Shown: one piece after another, positions 1,828-22,008 of the stretch
Numbering within the stretch: position 1 is the stretch's first letter
How the letters are laid out: each line of letters opens with the position of its first letter
Origin: the human T2T-CHM13v2.0 reference genome, Homo sapiens
DNA: 64,000 nt
Direction: 5' to 3' (one strand)
NCBI RefSeq assembly: GCF_009914755.1
Contig: NC_060928.1
Translations under genes and position numbers: made by a program
Notes under the pieces: generated by a model
Databases searched by the model: none
Told to the model about the DNA's origin: nothing
The model's input: only the letters and a program-made list of their open reading frames with translations

Positions 1828-2007
<180 letters not shown>

Positions 2008-5929: not shown

Positions 5930-6850
5930 TTGCCTCACATCTTCATTGCTTCGCCCTTCCCTTCCCTCTTGGGGCTCCAGCCATTCTGCACATCTGTTCC
6001 CTCTATGACTGCACCATACCCTTTTCCGTGTCCTAAATCTTGTGCCATCTCCTCCCTTTGTCTGAAATATTTCCCTCCCTATCTTTGCCTAACTACTGGC
6101 TTTTCAAGTCTCAGTTCAATGCCACTTCCTTTGGGAGGTCTTCGCTGGCCTCTCTAATAAGATTTAGACTAAAAGCTCTCTGAAGTCCCTGGTGCTTAAC
6201 ATGGTGTTGTAAAACCTTATGATTATTTAGAATCCAGATATGCATTCCTTAGGCCTTGATGTTTACTGGGGGCCTTGGGTGTTTCTTAATTTGTTCAATT
6301 ATTTACAAAAGGTTTTTTTTGGGGTGGGAGGTATAGGCTGTGGGCTATGTACTAGGAAGACAATGATAAATAATACATGGCCTTTCCTTTCAGGGTAATT
6401 CCAGTGCAGTAAGAGCGACAATTATTAATCTAAGTATAATAAGTATTTTAGGATGGTGGTGGAAGTGGGGACACAAAGGAGACAGCGGTCAACTCTACTT
6501 GGAGAGGTAGAAAGACCTCATGGAGGTGTCTTTGAATTTATCTTGAAAGAAGTCTAGGATTTTACCAGGCAGGCTGTGTGGTACCAGCAATGCCTTGGAA
6601 TTTGAGACATCATTGCACGTTAGAAAAACTGCAGGTTATCTATGTGGCTGCAGCACAAGGTGTGAGAAGGAGAGGAATAGAGAAATGGGTGAACAGCAAC
6701 TGAGAGGCTGAAGAGGTGGTGAGGCACCAAATGCTGTGGGCCATGTTCTAGAATTTGGACTTTATCTTTAAGGCAGTGGAAAGACAATGAATGGTTTGAA
6801 GCAGTTTTTTATTTAGGGAAAATCACTGTCAGTAGTATGGAGGATAACTT
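5930..6850. mobile_element. Degenerate L2 LINE fragments
   Basis: L2-like text such as gaatttggactttatctttaaggcagtggaaagacaatgaatggtttgaagcag; highly diverged. Confidence 0.5.
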
Positions 6851-9800
6851 AGGGGAAAAAAAAACATGCCAGAGCTTTGCAGTAGAGGGTCCCATCTTGT
6901 GTTCAAGAGTGGCCAAGATAAGCAGTCCCTTTGCAAACAAGCCACTTCTGCTCACAGAAGGTCCTTATCACTTCTTAATATTCCTTTGGTGGAGAAGGCC
7001 TATAGCCTGAGGCTTTAAAGGGGGCAGAAAATTACAGCAGGTTGTCAAAAGAATATGGCAAAGAACCAATAATGGGAGCTAACATCTCTTAAAATTGGCA
7101 CTTTAATTATTTTAATTTTAAATGAAGTCAGAGGAGGTGAAAAGTATTTTAAATTTATAAGCAAAGTATATGTAACTTTTTTATAAAAATGAAAACATGC
7201 TTAGGGAGAGAGAGCTTATTTAGATAAGTTTTGAGCTTTATCAAAACAATTGTAACACTCTAGCAAATAAGTAGACTTCTTTCTTCTTCAACAGCTACTC
7301 CTCACAGTAAAAGAGCACTTGGTGGAAATTTTGTTCTGAAGTGAAGGCTGAAACCCCAGAGATCAAACACTGTACTCAAGTTTACAAAGCTGGACTCAGA
7401 CCCTAACACTGGCTTTAAAATTTGTCCTAAGTTAGACCATAATGCCTCTCTTTCCAGCTGGATCTACATGCCTCCACTCTGGCTTTTAACAAGGCTCTGA
7501 ACTATTGTCAGAACTTGGGAATTTCTAACATTGAAGGTAACACATTGACACAATTTCCTCGATGTAAAATTGTATACACTTTATCCAAGTCCCATCTGAG
7601 CATGTTATGTCCTATTTGTACCCTTACAAAAACTGATTGGTGGCCAAATTGATTTGAGACTGAAAGTTGCCACTTATGTTCTTAGAAATACTTGCTTTAA
7701 TTCACCAGAATCAGTTGCTCTGATACAACTTCTTATAGTCACCTAAGTCAACATAGTAAGAAAATAAACATATAAATGCCCTAAAGATAATTTGATAAAA
7801 ATTGTTTTTTATATCATTTCCTCAACAATCTCATAGTGGTAGCTGACCTATAAAATGACCTTTTTCATAGTTCATTTTTCTTCCATTTCTGGAAAAAAGA
7901 TAGCATAAGTCTTTCAGTAGGAATTAATACCCATGCATGCTTAGTGGTAAGAAGAAGGCACAGAGGCTTGTTACTGGAAGTCTATAGTTTACAAAACAGT
8001 GTCATCTTGAAGGAACAATAGCTCCCATAAAAATGAGTTTTCATATTTTCTTGTATTAATTAACTTTTAAATAATTTCGTAGTTATTCCAGAGTAGAATC
8101 ACATGGGGGCAATTTAAAGAATTTCATCAATACCTTCAAATTAAATAAACCAGCATCTGGTTGAAAAAAAAAAAATCACTTACCTGGAAGGAGAAACAAA
8201 AGAAACATCCTCAAATTCTAAAGCTTCATTCAAAATTCAAGGTAAGGAAACCAAATTTCCACAATATGATCCCTTAAAATCACCAAGAATGTTCAAAACT
8301 ACATTTGATAACAACAGCTCACACAACTACTTGGCTCTCCTAGATTCCTAAGACCCTAACCAGCTAATAGACGTCTGTGGACATATTCAATTCTGCAAAG
8401 CTGCAAAATATCTGTGAGAAGCTGGTTTTTGAATAGGACTTTTTACTATAGCTATATACTATTTAGTTCAGTAAACTGGGTAGAAAGCATTGAAGCAAAC
8501 TCGTAACCATTGAACAACAAACTTTAGTTTGCCAAAACTGCTTAGGGACTGGATTAAGGGAAGGCTCTCCTGTTATTTTTATCTCTTTGCCTTTGGTGCT
8601 CTCAGCTTTCTGTAGCTAAAGTAGCTTTCAAAAATCTACTTGTGTCATTCCTAGATTAAAGGTCAGTTTAAGTATTGTCCTGTTGAATTCAGAAGGTACA
8701 TTTAAGCTAGAAAACCACTTGCAGCACATCTAATCCAAATTGCCGACTTTACAGATAGACATTTGGTCTCATAAAAATTAAATGACTAGCTCAGATCAGC
8801 ATATCTGGTAAGCAGCAGAACTGAGACTTAATTCTGCTGACCCTCAATATTAGTCTCACCTTCCGGATCTCGCTGACTGGTTGAGATCTTGTCAGCAAGA
8901 TTTCTCTAATGTTTTAGTACATTAGTCAGCAAGCATTGGGGCATATTGTACATACAAAAAAGGACAGCTAAATTCCTGAGCTCCCTGGACATCCTAAAAG
9001 CTAGAATTTTAGTAAAAACCATGTAGTCTTCATTTTGATGATTTTTCCACACTAATTTATTGTATTACTTAGATTATATCTCTTACCCCTCAGTGTCCTT
9101 ATACTATAGCCACTATGAGAAATTATGTTTTGCTCTAGCAATACGGAGATGAGAGTCAGTTTCTTAATCCCTTCACATCTTCTGGCAGGAACACATCCAG
9201 TCTATACCTGCAAAATTTCACCTCTCTCTCCAAGTGAAGTATATTTACCTTGTGGTGTTATGAAAGATGTGTCCAGCATCTGGCTACCCAGGAATAGACA
9301 GACCTTGTGCCAACACTGCACATTTTCTTAGCTGCATGGGCCTCTGAGAAACATACTCTGAAGACCTTACCCCATGCCTGCTTGCAAATGAATCACTGGA
9401 TGAACCCTGAAGGATGGGCAGAGTTTTAGGTGAAGATGCAGAGGAGGAGGGATAAAGAAATAGCATGGGCCTAACATATGGAGAAAGGGGAGTATAACAT
9501 GCATTGATGTGGAGGCTTAGGTCACCTAGCAGGCAAGTGTTGGCAAATCTCTCAGATTGATAAGAGTTTAATGATTAAGTGGCAAATTAGTGCAAAATAA
9601 AATATAAAGGTATGTTTTGTCATATTAGTGAGGCCTCAAACTCCTACTTTAAATTTATGTTTTTCAGTTTTCAGGCACTGAAATGGCATTTGCTATGGTA
9701 CTTAGTACAAAGTAAATCTGTGTGACCTGAATTGAATTCTGTAATTTAGGTTTGAGAAGGGTGGAATGAATTGGTATACTTTCTAGAAAATGAAATATTC

Positions 9801-14039: not shown

Positions 14040-14657
14040 TTAAGTTGTATAAAACAGGAGAGAATATATCAAAGTACATCACACAGAATAAGGGAAGGTA
14101 TTATTTTGTGGAATTTTATTTCAGACAAGTGTGTGTGTGAGCCTGTGTGCTGTGAGTTGTAGTGCACATTAACTATGTCTCAATAATACTTGATTATGTT
14201 TTGAGCCTGATGAACCTGGTTATACCCTATCTGAATACCTGGCTGCCAGATCAATAGCATATGAAATACCAGAAATGCACTCACCGCCTGCACAAGCCAT
14301 TGACCAGTGGCTCATGCACACCTTTATCCAGCTTATCTAGCTCCAGAAAGCACTTAGACTTTCTATGTGTGCTGCACCACTAAAATGGGAATTCTGAGAG
14401 AGAATGCTTTCAAAAACATAAAGTTAGCTAATGGGACAATTACACGTAGGCTATATACTTTAGAAACACATGAAAGGATAAGGGCAAATAAAACATAATT
14501 TATATATCAAAAGAGCAGAAACAAGGAATCATAAAATATGAAATAGGATAACAGAAATAAGATACTAAATGTCAGTTGTGAATTAATGAATGCATATGGA
14601 TTGTGGTTTTGTATTAAAAGACAGAAACTTTTAGATTGAGTCAAAAGAGATAGGTTA

Positions 14658-19213: not shown

Positions 19214-20799
19214 TTGCTTATTCAACCAATATGCTACTATAAATACCAATCGGGAACTGTGCTAGATTCTGGGGATACACGGATGAATAAAGTAGGCATG
19301 ATGATATCATACCAGTGCCTTTGTTTCCTCCAATTAAATTAGTATATTATGACCTAGAATGCAAATTTTGTATGAATTTTTAAGTAAACACAAAAAGCTT
19401 TTGGAGACTCCTGGTTTATGCCATAATTTCCTAGTCGAAGTGATATTGTATTGTATTTTCAAATTGGTTCTTAGCTTCAGAATCTGATTTTCAGATAAAA
19501 GCTCCAGCTTTTCCTTGAAAACACTAACTTACCTGCTGTTTCAGAATTTTTGCTCTTGCTCTTCCCTCTGCCTTCTGTCCTCTTTTCCCAGAATTTTCAG
19601 GGTTGGCTCCGTCTCCTTGTTCCACATTTAGCATAAATGTCATCTACTCAGAAAATAACTCCCTGCTACCCTTTTCTTAAGCAGCTTTCGGCATTCATGT
19701 TTATCATCTTACCTGGTTTTATATGCTTTGTATTAGTTTTGACTGTTTTTATCTTATTTTAATAAGATAGTTGTTGTTCCATTTATTATCTGCGTTCCCT
19801 CCCATCATCCACTGCGCCTACCCTCCGTGTATCCTCCATGGGAGCCCATTTTTCTTCCTGCCCTGGGCTCAGTGTCTGGTTCACAATCTGACATGTAATG
19901 ACTGAATCATCAAATGAGTGCAGGAATTCAGGGACTGGGAATCAAGTCATATTAGAAAAAATGGATTCTCCATTTGGAAGGAGATCTCTGGTAAGTTTAG
20001 AATTAGAAATATTGGCTTTATTCTTAAGATTCCTGGAGAAAGCAAGGCAATCATCTTTTTTTTTATAGCAACATAAAAGAAAAAGAAAAAGACTTCACCA
20101 TGTTTACTCTTCAGCTAATCAGTATGGGGGAAAAACTTGATCTTACACCTTTCTGTTATACTATAAAGTAGCCACATCAAGAGAGTTTCCTTGGAGGGTT
20201 TCTGAAGCTACAAAGATGATAACAGCTTGGGTACTGGAGACCATTGTAGCTTTCAGGGTCATCTTGCCCCAGTGACCAAGTGCCATTTAAGGCTTTAATA
20301 CACTATCTGCTTGTGTAGTTGTAGAAATTTAAAAAAAAAAATCATTTCTTTGCCAGGAACCCTTTCCAAATTTGGGGCACTTGTAAGTCACACAGAGTTT
20401 TCCCAAATGCTGGGCACACCCCCAGTAGAGTATGCAGTGTCTAATTTTGCTTGAGTTACATCCAGTTTGGTTTGCCCCATGGAGCAACACAAAGAATACA
20501 TCTTTTTTTCTGTGTAATAGCACTTCAAATATATGAATATATATACAAATATTACACTACATCCCTTTCATTTGTTTTCTTTTCTTCAAACTAAACGTTT
20601 TCATACTTTTCTGCTTAAAAAATTAGAGTAGCTATGTTTGTTTTCTGTTTTCTTTCTGTAATTTTCTTTTCTCTCTGACTTTTCAGAAATCACCAATCAC
20701 ATACGTAGGTTTGTTCCCTAGTCTGTAACTATTGATAGCTACTGCTTATTTTAATAATATATTATTAATACTTTTTAATCATGATAGTTAATTCTAATC

Positions 20800-21060: not shown

Positions 21061-21971
21061 TCCCCTAGGGTATCTTAGAAAATGCTGATCTCTCCTCCCT
21101 GTGTGCTACAGAGTGCTCAGTAGCTCCTTGATACTTGCTCTCACTTGGGATACAGCAATGTCTAATAGACTCAGAATGTTTCAAGCAACTGCCTGCCCGC
21201 TGTGTGCTGGGCACTAGTATTGCTAACACATAAGCACTGCACTTGAGAGGATGTTTAACTATAATATTCTCAGAAAGAGGCCAAAATCATGTTAATTTAA
21301 GACACTAAATTAATAATTAAATTTAAACTAAGTTAAATTCAAATTATTGAATTAATACAATTTAATAATAACCCTATGATATTTCTTTATTTTAATGGAT
21401 TTAAATTTCTCCTAAAATTCACAGGATACCTAAGCCAGTAAGAGTTGTTTTTGTTTTTTTTCTTCCTATGTGACACTTTAGTAATGGACCCACAGAGAAG
21501 CGAACAACTCCCCACGGTTTCAGTGTTCATGCTTTTGGCTTCTCGCCATTTGGCAGAAATAGGAAATTATACCTTTTGAAAACTAAAAGCCATATAGCTA
21601 CCAACATCTTCGTTAATAACTCTTTAGTTTGGAAATGAATCTCCTTATAACTCAAACAAAGCAATACATTTATTCACAGAGAGGTATTTCTCATAGCATT
21701 TGATAAAATTATTTTAATTCTAGCTAGACTTAGAATTGAAGTAAGCTTCTCATACTAGAAAACTGGATTTGGCCATAAATACTGGGCTCCCTTGTGCCAT
21801 TTCCCCCACATTGGTAGCTGAGTTCCAGTAAAATCCATCCACCAGACTGGAAGAGGAAATACTACTCATTTATTGATTTAAATAAGATAGAACTAAAATA
21901 GGGTAGTTCATATTTTATTCTATGATCTCATACCCAATATAACAGAACCAAGATGAAATAAAATCACTTAC

Positions 21972-22008
21972 CTGACAATAGTAATACAAAGATTATTTTT
22001 CCATACAT
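21972..22008 (-). CDS. GYPA: Glycophorin A exon 1 coding part (37 bp; signal peptide MYGKIIFVLLLS)
   Basis: Minus strand ATGTATGGAAAAATAATCTTTGTATTACTATTGTCAG|gtaagt; splices in frame to exon 2. Confidence 0.98.

What the first reader, a model, noticed from the sequence alone, without database searches (positions are those of the whole stretch)
8134..8215. Candidate recursive splice site in GYPA intron 1 that regenerates the exon-1 donor
Seen on the GYPA strand: GTTTCTTTTGTTTCTCCTTCCAG|GTAAGTGATTTT, a strong polypyrimidine tract and CAG (AG at 8185-8184) immediately followed by a perfect GTAAGT (8183-8178). The 15-mer CAGGTAAGTGATTTT is identical to the real exon-1 donor (21974-21960). Splicing exon 1 to this AG recreates its own 5' splice site, dividing the intron into 13,788 + 6,204 nt. 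A weaker AAG|GTATTG donor 50 nt downstream (GT at 8133-8132) would define an RS-exon that, if included, reads G|GT AAG TGA, an immediate stop. Known: vertebrate recursive sites have this AG|GT plus poison RS-exon design, mostly reported in much longer introns. Inference: stepwise removal of intron 1, possibly a hidden control or null-allele site for MNS expression. I am not aware of it being described.
Basis: partly seen in the sequence, partly recalled or inferred. Interest (0 to 1): 0.8.

Follow-up and report, generated by a model that had tools for sequence, protein, structure and literature searches.

The report
Strong acceptor-donor motif in GYPA intron 1
Deep inside the first intron of the glycophorin A gene sits an unusually strong back-to-back splice acceptor and donor that could let the intron be removed in two steps, but nothing yet shows that it is used or matters.

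Summary
On the GYPA strand, a 19-of-20 pyrimidine tract and CAG (AG 8185-8184) directly abut GTAAGT (8183-8178). The 15-mer shared with the exon-1 donor is real. The two sub-introns are 13,788 and 6,204 nt. The 50-nt downstream "exon" reads G|GT AAG TGA.

With a weight matrix recalled from memory, this is the best of 435 AGGT sites in the window. Nothing as strong appeared in 6 Mb of simulated sequence.

I found no evidence of use or of selection:
- No RNA data were available.
- GYPA intron 1 is absent from every recursive-site list I could search, though almost none of those lists came from erythroid cells.
- The GYPB copy has lost the GT (CAG|ATAAGT). The GYPE copy has lost the +50 donor.
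- Substitutions in the unit run at the neutral rate.
- Similarity to exon 1 does not extend beyond the 15-mer.

Published work counts 105,875 unannotated dual-use AGGT sites in human transcripts, so one more would be ordinary.

My best reading (0.5) is a chance-born, splice-competent site used occasionally and neutrally as a recursive intermediate. The main rival (0.33) is a silent pseudo-site.

The parts
8206..8223 (-). Candidate branch-point region (CTTTAGAATTTGAGGATG). A8219 (35 nt upstream of the junction) and A8211 (27 nt upstream) both sit in a U-n-A context.
   Evidence: Sequence read. The branch-point assignment is inference from the recalled yUnAy consensus and the position of upstream AGs. 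It was not tested.
8186..8205 (-). Polypyrimidine tract, 19 of 20 pyrimidines.
   Evidence: The acceptor weight-matrix score of 15.8 is the best of all AGGT sites in the window. 2 of 8,715 AG sites score as high.
8184..8185 (-). AG of the candidate recursive 3' splice site (CAG).
8178..8183 (-). GTAAGT. After ligation to exon 1 it would regenerate a consensus 5' splice site.
   Evidence: donor score 12.7, equal to the exon-1 donor. It reads ATAAGT in the GYPB copy.
8172..8186 (-). 15-mer CAGGTAAGTGATTTT, identical to the exon-1 donor.
   Evidence: It has 18 copies in the genome, 5 of them in the glycophorin cluster.
8164..8175 (-). Run of 12 T starting 9 nt into the regenerated intron. It is 11 T in the GYPB and GYPE copies.
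   Evidence: A role as a U-rich element next to the donor is inference only.
8134..8183 (-). Putative 50-nt RS-exon. If included after exon 1 it reads G|GT AAG TGA, a stop at the third codon.
8128..8133 (-). Weak downstream donor AAG|GTATTG that could define the RS-exon.
   Evidence: Donor score 4.2. GT is CT in the GYPE copy. Other weak donors lie at +81 (4.9), +324 (4.3) and +336 (6.0).
21960..21974 (-). Annotated exon-1 donor carrying the same 15-mer. The exon ends at 21972.
   Evidence: and the hub annotation. It is identical in GYPB and GYPE.
8240..8246 (-). Heptamer CTTACCT, the exact complement of AGGTAAG at 8185-8179, 55 nt upstream.
   Evidence: It pairs with the site in the predicted folds, but fold energies are not unusual (z -0.7 and -0.9).

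Best explanation
This is a chance-born but fully splice-competent composite signal: a very strong acceptor fused to a consensus donor, on the sense strand of GYPA intron 1.

Most likely it is used in some fraction of erythroid pre-mRNAs as a recursive (dual-specific) intermediate:
1. When Pol II has transcribed 13.8 kb, U2AF and U2 engage the tract and CAG. The branch point is probably A8219 or A8211.
2. The exon-1 donor is spliced to G8183.
3. That junction recreates a donor identical to the original from -3 to +12.
4. The recreated donor strongly outcompetes the weak +50 donor and is spliced to exon 2.

The mRNA is unchanged and the 50-nt poison exon is almost never included. The step is dispensable and not under detectable selection. 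It is not a control point.

Shown here: the anatomy, its rarity, and the lack of conservation. Inferred: that it is used at all, the branch points, and the order of events.
For: Anatomy and strength:
- The site is the best of 435 AGGT sites in the window. Its acceptor score is about twice that of the real GYPA acceptors, and its donor is the consensus.
- None as strong appeared among 20,381 AGGT sites in 6 Mb of simulated sequence.
- The other two CAGGTAAGT on this strand of the window are annotated donors.
- The regenerated donor (12.7) far outscores the RS-exon donor (4.2). Blazquez 2018 names this as the condition for efficient recursive splicing of cryptic RS-exons (passages).

Base rates from print:
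- 105,875 AGGT sites are used as both donor and acceptor with more than 10 reads in the Sequence Read Archive. Donor and acceptor use at AGGT is 3.1-fold synergistic (Duan 2024, section read).
- 60% of 36,870 motif-defined sites have junction reads in ENCODE data (Zhang 2018, passages).
- Recursive splicing is reported as commoner in first introns and in introns over 10 kb (Wang 2026 preprint, introduction).
- The median recursively spliced intron is 10,114 bp (Bass and Salzberg 2026, abstract).

Neutrality:
- GYPB has CAG|ATAAGT plus a T>G change in the tract. GYPE has lost the +50 GT.
- There are 5 substitutions in the 92-nt unit over three lineages. About 3.3 are expected from 32, 36 and 38 lineage-specific changes in 2,962 aligned columns.
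Against: - No RNA evidence of any kind was available.
- No GYPA, GYPB or GYPE entry appears in the supplements of Hoppe 2023, Bass and Salzberg 2026 or Duan 2024.
- The three 'GYPA' rows in Zhang 2018's S1 table lie in a different, 121-kb intron.
- The RS-exon donor is weak, and the 50-nt exon is T-rich with little that looks like an enhancer, so exon definition may fail.
- The exon junction complex represses regenerated donors in mammals (Blazquez 2018).
- The flank of the exon-1 donor has 0 CpG in 200 nt. The Wang 2026 preprint ties recursive splicing in first introns to a CG-rich donor flank (abstract).
- GYPB is expressed without the regenerated donor. So either the acceptor is little used or its use is tolerated.
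Confidence: 0.5

Rival explanations
1. Silent pseudo-site. The motif scores well but is essentially never spliced (well under 1% of transcripts). No RS-exon is defined, or repressors occupy the pyrimidine and U tracts. Intron 1 is removed in one step.
For: - The downstream donors are weak: 4.2 at +50, 4.9 at +81, 6.0 at +336.
- The site is absent from all catalogues searched.
- There is no conservation.
- The exon-1 flank has no CpG (compare the abstract).
- GYPB tolerates loss of the GT while keeping the acceptor.
- In brain, only 3,022 of 1,674,568 motif-plus-SPLAM candidates gained robust read support.
Against: - The catalogues are almost all non-erythroid, and GYPA is erythroid-specific.
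- The site lies at the extreme top of motif strength.
- Published Sequence Read Archive analysis shows that AGGT sites are used far more than annotation suggests, with donor-acceptor synergy.
Confidence: 0.33
2. This is a selected recursive site that controls GYPA output, either through regulated inclusion of the 50-nt poison exon or as a fidelity checkpoint. Variants in it could give MNS-null or weak alleles.
For: - The design matches a recursive site with a poison RS-exon.
- The donor is identical to the exon-1 donor over 15 nt. That 15-mer has only 13 copies outside the glycophorin cluster in 3.1 Gb.
Against: - The paralogues each lost one element, and the substitution rate in the unit is neutral or higher.
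- The site is not among Zhang 2018's conserved putative sites, although intron 1 exceeds their 5-kb cut-off.
- Two full-text searches found no paper linking GYPA to recursive splicing or to a cryptic site in intron 1.
Confidence: 0.07
3. The GTAAGT is the donor of an unannotated exon ending at 8184. One candidate is an alternative first exon whose ATG (8208-8206) opens a phase-1 reading frame, MFLLFLLP. Spliced to exon 2, that frame would give an alternative hydrophobic leader.
For: - The ATG-to-junction distance is 25 nt, the same phase as exon 1.
- The joined translation stays open through exon 2.
- The heptamer AGGATGT around the ATG is shared with exon 1.
Against: - A phase-1 ATG frame lies upstream of 40 of 248 strong acceptors in the window.
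- A shared 7-mer occurs in 529 of 2,000 shuffles and at 293 of 1,215 real CAG sites.
- RefSeq annotates no exon here (hub table).
- No promoter evidence was sought beyond reading the sequence.
Confidence: 0.04
4. On origin only: the site is a decayed internal duplicate of the exon-1/intron-1 boundary, which would explain the shared 15-mer.
For: A second copy of a 15-mer with 18 genome copies lies 13.8 kb away on the same strand.
Against: - The local alignment of the flanks scores 21. Shuffles with the 15-mer held fixed give 18.3 +/- 2.6, and 42 of 300 reach the observed score.
- Nine of the 15 bases are simply the donor consensus.
- The other six (GATTTT) occur at a frequency of about 6 x 10^-4 on this strand.
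Confidence: 0.03

Closest known systems
Vertebrate recursive splice sites with cryptic RS-exons (Sibley et al. 2015, recalled; described in passages of Blazquez et al. 2018, PMC6224609)
   Same: An AG|GT junction deep in a first intron. A strong regenerated donor outcompetes a weaker downstream donor. The RS-exon carries a premature stop. The final mRNA is unchanged.
   Different: The classic sites are conserved, lie in introns of hundreds of kb in neuronal genes, and have saw-tooth, junction and lariat support. This one is in a 20-kb intron of an erythroid gene, is not intact in its two paralogues, and has no RNA evidence.
Dual-specific splice sites (AGGT used as both donor and acceptor; Duan et al. 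2024, PMC10809524, abstract and section 6 read)
   Same: An unannotated intronic AGGT with both signals. The paper reports 105,875 such sites with more than 10 reads each way, and synergy between the two uses.
   Different: Published dual-specific sites tend to have weaker motif scores than single-use sites. This site is near the maximum for both. No GYPA entry is in the two supplementary files held.
Drosophila ratchet points (zero-nucleotide exons; Hatton 1998 and Duff 2015, seen only as citations)
   Same: A long pyrimidine tract and CAG abutting GTAAGT, the same consensus as fly ratchet points.
   Different: Fly sites are constitutive and conserved, and the exon junction complex does not repress them. 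In mammals the exon junction complex represses regenerated donors.
EJC-repressed annotated RS-exons (Blazquez et al. 2018)
   Same: A donor is reconstituted at an exon-exon junction, so the same competition rules would apply after step 1.
   Different: Those are annotated, included exons. Here the RS-exon is unannotated and would be skipped.

Membership tests
Vertebrate recursive splice site (RS-site with RS-exon) | 3' splice-site AG immediately followed by 5' splice-site GT, on the sense strand, deep inside an annotated intron | tested here: met
   The site is 13,788 nt from exon 1 and 6,204 nt from exon 2.
Vertebrate recursive splice site (RS-site with RS-exon) | Strong polypyrimidine tract and acceptor | tested here: met
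   19 of 20 pyrimidines. The score of 15.8 with the recalled weight matrix is top of 435 AGGT sites. MaxEntScan was not available.
Vertebrate recursive splice site (RS-site with RS-exon) | Usable branch point 18-40 nt upstream | tested here: inconclusive
   A8219 and A8211 are in a U-n-A context. Neither is a full consensus. No branch-point predictor or lariat data were available.
Vertebrate recursive splice site (RS-site with RS-exon) | Regenerated donor stronger than the RS-exon donor | tested here: met
   12.7 against 4.2. The criterion is quoted in Blazquez 2018.
Vertebrate recursive splice site (RS-site with RS-exon) | Downstream donor able to define an RS-exon | tested here: inconclusive
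   Only weak donors are present, at +50, +81, +324 and +336. The +50 GT is lost in GYPE.
Vertebrate recursive splice site (RS-site with RS-exon) | Evolutionary conservation of the site | tested here: not met
   Only paralogues could be compared. GYPB has lost the GT and GYPE the +50 donor. The substitution rate is neutral. The site is absent from Zhang 2018's list, which required PhastCons >= 0.5. Other species were not available.
Vertebrate recursive splice site (RS-site with RS-exon) | RNA evidence: exon-to-site junction reads, two lariats, saw-tooth coverage | not testable with these tools
   No RNA-seq access. The catalogues searched hold no GYPA intron-1 site.
Dual-specific splice site (Duan 2024) | The same AGGT observed in junction reads as both a donor and an acceptor | not testable with these tools
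   Only the definition and the counts were read.
Duplicate of exon 1 (pseudo-exon) | Sequence similarity extending beyond the splice-site consensus | tested here: not met
   The flanks align no better than shuffles do.

The most novel reading that the evidence does not exclude
The site is an efficient recursive site in GYPA, and its decay in the paralogues matters.

In GYPB the G>A change at +1 leaves a strong acceptor with no regenerated donor. Exon 1 would then be spliced into a dead end or into a 48-nt exon containing a stop.

That loss could contribute to the lower abundance of glycophorin B (2 x 10^5 against 10^6 copies per cell; Table 1 of PMC6591965). It could also bear on the post-transcriptional differences among glycophorins A, B and E named in the title of Rahuel et al. 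1994, which I saw only in reference lists.
Probability: 0.04. Interest if true: 0.6.

Novelty: new member of a known kind. Interest (0 to 1): 0.25.

Why it matters
If the site is used, GYPA intron 1 would be a compact, highly expressed, erythroid example of two-step intron removal, with a built-in natural experiment: GYPA is intact, GYPB lacks the regenerated donor and GYPE lacks the RS-exon donor. That would make it a convenient system for asking what an RS-exon donor and a regenerated donor each contribute.

It matters little for MNS blood-group genetics unless variants at the AG or GT change GYPA output, and nothing here suggests they do.

Published counts put dual-use AGGT sites above 100,000 and recursive sites in the thousands. 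A further candidate is therefore ordinary.

Tried and rejected
1. Exon-1 duplication. The local alignment of +/-300 nt is not above shuffles with the 15-mer held fixed: 42 of 300 reach the observed score.

2. Pseudo-exon 1 or alternative leader (shared AGGATGT, in-phase ATG, MFLLFLLP). Shared 7-mers occur in 529 of 2,000 shuffles and at 293 of 1,215 real CAG sites. A phase-1 ATG frame lies upstream of 40 of 248 strong acceptors.

3. Structured RNA. Fold z-scores are -0.67, -0.91 and -0.90. There was no Rfam match at E <= 1 in 7000-9500.

4. High-copy repeat. The 401-nt region matches only the GYPA, GYPB and GYPE copies in the genome.

5. Literature.
- 'recursive splicing' plus GYPA gave 3 papers, 2 of them listed. 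I opened one. Its 'GYPA' hit was an author name, Gypas, and both terms occurred only in the reference list.
- GYPA plus 'intron 1' plus 'cryptic' gave 7 papers, none about this site by title. I opened one, which concerned the coding variant c.232G>A.
- 'glycophorin A' plus 'alternative splicing' plus 'erythroblasts' plus 'premature termination codon' gave 5 papers. I judged them by title and abstract start only.

6. Rahuel 1994 is not held.

7. The reversed-pattern control (411 against 89) is not a clean sign of depletion. The reversed word resembles pericentromeric satellite repeats (my recollection), and contigs C5 and C10 gave no hits at all, so the search may be incomplete.

8. I did not try to map the 89 genome-wide motif sites onto published GRCh38 catalogues, because no coordinate lift-over was available.
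Full report
**What is there**

- A 20-nt tract with 19 pyrimidines (8205-8186) precedes AG (8185-8184).
- The AG is followed at once by GTAAGT (8183-8178), then GA, then 12 T (8175-8164).
- The 15-mer CAGGTAAGTGATTTT occurs in the window only here (8186-8172) and at the annotated exon-1 donor (21974-21960).
- The site divides the 19,992-nt intron into 13,788 and 6,204 nt.
- Fifty nucleotides downstream lies AAG|GTATTG (GT at 8133-8132).
- Exon 1 ends in phase 1, so inclusion of that 50-nt segment reads G|GT AAG TGA (one search gives the frame).

**Is it more than chance?**

Within the window:
- CAGGTAAGT occurs three times on the GYPA strand and never on the other. The other two are annotated donors, of exon 1 and of the alternative exon 19533-19615 (and the hub table).
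- I had no MaxEntScan, so I scored sites with donor and acceptor frequency matrices that I recalled. The absolute values are rough.
- On that scale the site is the only one of 435 AGGT sites (207 minus, 228 plus) that reaches its own two scores.
- Its acceptor scores 15.8, against 7.5, 8.1 and 5.4 for GYPA exons 2-4. Its donor scores 12.7, the same as exon 1.
- Only 2 of 8,715 AG dinucleotides in the window score as high as acceptors.
- In 6 Mb of order-3 Markov sequence modelled on the window, 0 of 20,381 AGGT sites matched it. Only 5 reached acceptor >= 12 with donor >= 10, which is 0.11 per window.

Genome-wide:
- Ten pyrimidines followed by CAGGTAAGT has at least 89 matches, two of them the GYPA and GYPE copies. 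That count is a lower bound, and two chromosomes returned nothing.
- The 15-mer has 18 matches. Five are in the glycophorin cluster: three exon-1 donors plus the GYPA and GYPE intronic sites.

A second copy inside one 20-kb intron is therefore very unlikely for that intron. In a scan of all human introns, a few such coincidences are still expected.

**Is the 15-mer a trace of duplication?**

I found no support for that.
- A local alignment of the exon-1 region against the site scores 21. Shuffled flanks with the 15-mer held fixed give 18.3 +/- 2.6, and 42 of 300 reach the observed score.
- The region upstream of the site has an ATG (8208-8206) in the same phase as exon 1. It encodes MFLLFLLP and stays open into exon 2. 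It shares AGGATGT with exon 1.
- Such a phase-1 frame precedes 40 of 248 strong acceptors in the window.
- A shared 7-mer appears in 529 of 2,000 shuffles and at 293 of 1,215 real CAG sites.
- Nine of the 15 bases are the donor consensus. The other six (GATTTT) occur at about 6 x 10^-4 per position on this strand.

**Surroundings**

- The 401-nt region is single-copy apart from its GYPB and GYPE counterparts.
- No Rfam family matches 7000-9500 at E <= 1.
- Predicted folds are unremarkable, with z-scores of -0.67, -0.91 and -0.90.
- The folds do pair the site with an exact complementary heptamer, CTTACCT at 8246-8240. That heptamer lies in the part that a first splicing step would remove.
- Plausible branch points are A8219 and A8211, both in a U-n-A context. 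This is inference from the sequence.

**Paralogues**

- The exon-1 donors of GYPA, GYPB and GYPE are identical over the stretch printed.
- GYPB reads CAG|ATAAGT, so the regenerated donor is gone. It also has a T>G change in the tract, a G>A change in the branch region and a 2-nt deletion.
- GYPE keeps CAG|GTAAGT, but its +50 donor reads CT instead of GT.
- By majority rule the intact design is ancestral, and only GYPA retains all of it.
- Over 2,962 ungapped aligned columns, the lineage-specific substitutions are 32 (GYPA), 36 (GYPB) and 38 (GYPE), about 1.1-1.3% each. I left out the last 460-odd columns, where the GYPB locus is not homologous.
- The 92-nt unit 8219-8128 carries 1, 3 and 1 substitutions plus two indels, against about 3.3 substitutions expected in total.
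- There is therefore no sign of purifying selection.
- GYPB is expressed without the regenerated donor. Either the acceptor is used little or its use is tolerated.

**What is in print**

- Two full-text searches found nothing on recursive splicing or a cryptic site in GYPA intron 1. The one paper I opened from each was irrelevant.
- Zhang et al. 2018 listed 36,870 putative sites. They required AGGT in introns >= 5 kb, a 3' splice-site MaxEnt score >= 5, PhastCons >= 0.5, and no overlap with a UCSC splice site (passages).
- Their S1 table has three 'GYPA' rows, all in a 121-kb intron at hg19 chr4:144918787-145039866. None is in intron 1, and the next row is HHIP.
- Intron 1 passes their length cut-off, and the acceptor is very strong on my recalled matrix, so I expect it to pass their strength cut-off too. 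The likeliest reason for the absence is a failed conservation filter. This is inference.
- Their RNA came from PA1, H9 and neural cells, which are not erythroid.
- Hoppe et al. 2023 used total RNA sets including ENCODE and Mercer 2015 (section read). There is no GYPA, GYPB or GYPE in the three files held.
- Bass and Salzberg 2026 used 900 brain samples. There is no GYPA by name.
- Their Table S3 merges their sites with those of Hoppe, Zhang, Sibley and Wan. It has no coordinate beginning 14411-14414, and the only one beginning 14410 is on chr19.
- That GYPA lies at about GRCh38 chr4:144.11-144.14 Mb is my recollection. It is consistent with the hg19 rows.
- Duan et al. 2024: no GYPA in the two files held.
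- These negatives are weak, because GYPA is erythroid-specific and the stringent lists are short.

**Base rates**

- Duan et al. report 12,703,961 AGGT in human transcripts. Of these, 6.9% are used as donors and 3.5% as acceptors with more than 10 reads. 105,875 are used as both, which is 3.1-fold more than independence predicts (section 6).
- Zhang et al. found junction reads for 60% of their putative sites in 806 ENCODE data sets.
- Against that, only 3,022 of 1,674,568 motif-plus-SPLAM candidates had robust support in brain.
- The Wang et al. 2026 preprint ties recursive splicing in first introns to a CG-rich flank of the upstream donor (abstract). GYPA has no CpG in the 200 nt around its exon-1 donor.
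- Blazquez et al. 2018 state three relevant points (passages). Recursive splicing begins with definition of an RS-exon. Efficient recursion needs a regenerated donor that outcompetes the RS-exon donor. The exon junction complex represses regenerated donors in mammals unless they are strong.
- Here the regenerated donor is the consensus (12.7) and the RS-exon donor is weak (4.2). That favours skipping of the poison exon if the first step happens. It makes the first step itself, RS-exon definition, the uncertain part.

**Verdict**

- Best reading (0.5): a chance-born, splice-competent AG|GT site, used at some level as a neutral recursive or dual-specific intermediate that leaves no mark in the mRNA.
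- Main rival (0.33): a silent pseudo-site.
- A selected control or null-allele point (0.07), the donor of an unannotated exon or leader (0.04) and a relic of an exon-1 duplication (0.03) are less likely.
- Most novel reading not excluded (0.04): loss of the regenerated donor in GYPB turns the acceptor into a trap and lowers glycophorin B output.
- If the site is real, it is a new member of a known and very numerous kind. Interest is low to moderate. Its main attraction is the three-paralogue natural experiment.

Noticed in passing
window 8240-8246 (minus strand): CTTACCT is the exact complement of AGGTAAG at the candidate site, 55 nt upstream. It pairs with the site in the predicted minimum-energy and centroid folds. 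The first splicing step would remove it, which could unmask the regenerated donor. Fold energies are not unusual (z -0.7 and -0.9).
   Followed up: partly
window 8184-8208 (minus strand): An ATG-initiated, phase-1 mini-frame (MFLLFLLP) ends exactly at the CAG. Spliced to exon 2 it would give a hydrophobic alternative leader. Similar frames precede 40 of 248 strong acceptors, so it is probably chance.
   Followed up: yes
window 19533-19615 (minus strand): The alternative RefSeq exon has the consensus donor CAG|GTAAGT but a very poor acceptor score (-5.1). It looks like an alternative first exon rather than a cassette exon.
   Followed up: no
window 1881-1979 (exon 2, minus strand): Translating exon 1 plus exon 2 gives ...SISA LSTTE.... 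By my recollection of the M/N definitions (Leu1 and Glu5 define N), this assembly carries the N allele of GYPA.
   Followed up: no
window 24976 (minus strand): A further AG|GTAAGT on the GYPA strand lies about 2.9 kb upstream of the annotated start of GYPA, outside the gene.
   Followed up: no
L002 (GYPB copy) against L001 and L003; roughly window 6500-6900: About 1.3 kb downstream of the site the GYPB locus stops being alignable with GYPA and GYPE (127 B-specific differences in the last 460-odd columns). This points to a structural difference. The distance from exon 1 to the site is 13.8 kb in GYPA, about 14.6 kb in GYPB and 19.1 kb in GYPE.
   Followed up: partly
whole genome (G000): Ten pyrimidines plus CAGGTAAGT has 89 matches, against 411 for the same word read backwards. 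Contigs C5 and C10 gave none. This could mean depletion of very strong AG|GT sites. It could equally be a control inflated by satellite repeats, or an incomplete search.
   Followed up: no
G000:C11:4337303-4410816: Three copies of the 15-mer CAGGTAAGTGATTTT lie within 75 kb on chromosome 11. They probably mark donors of a duplicated gene family.
   Followed up: no
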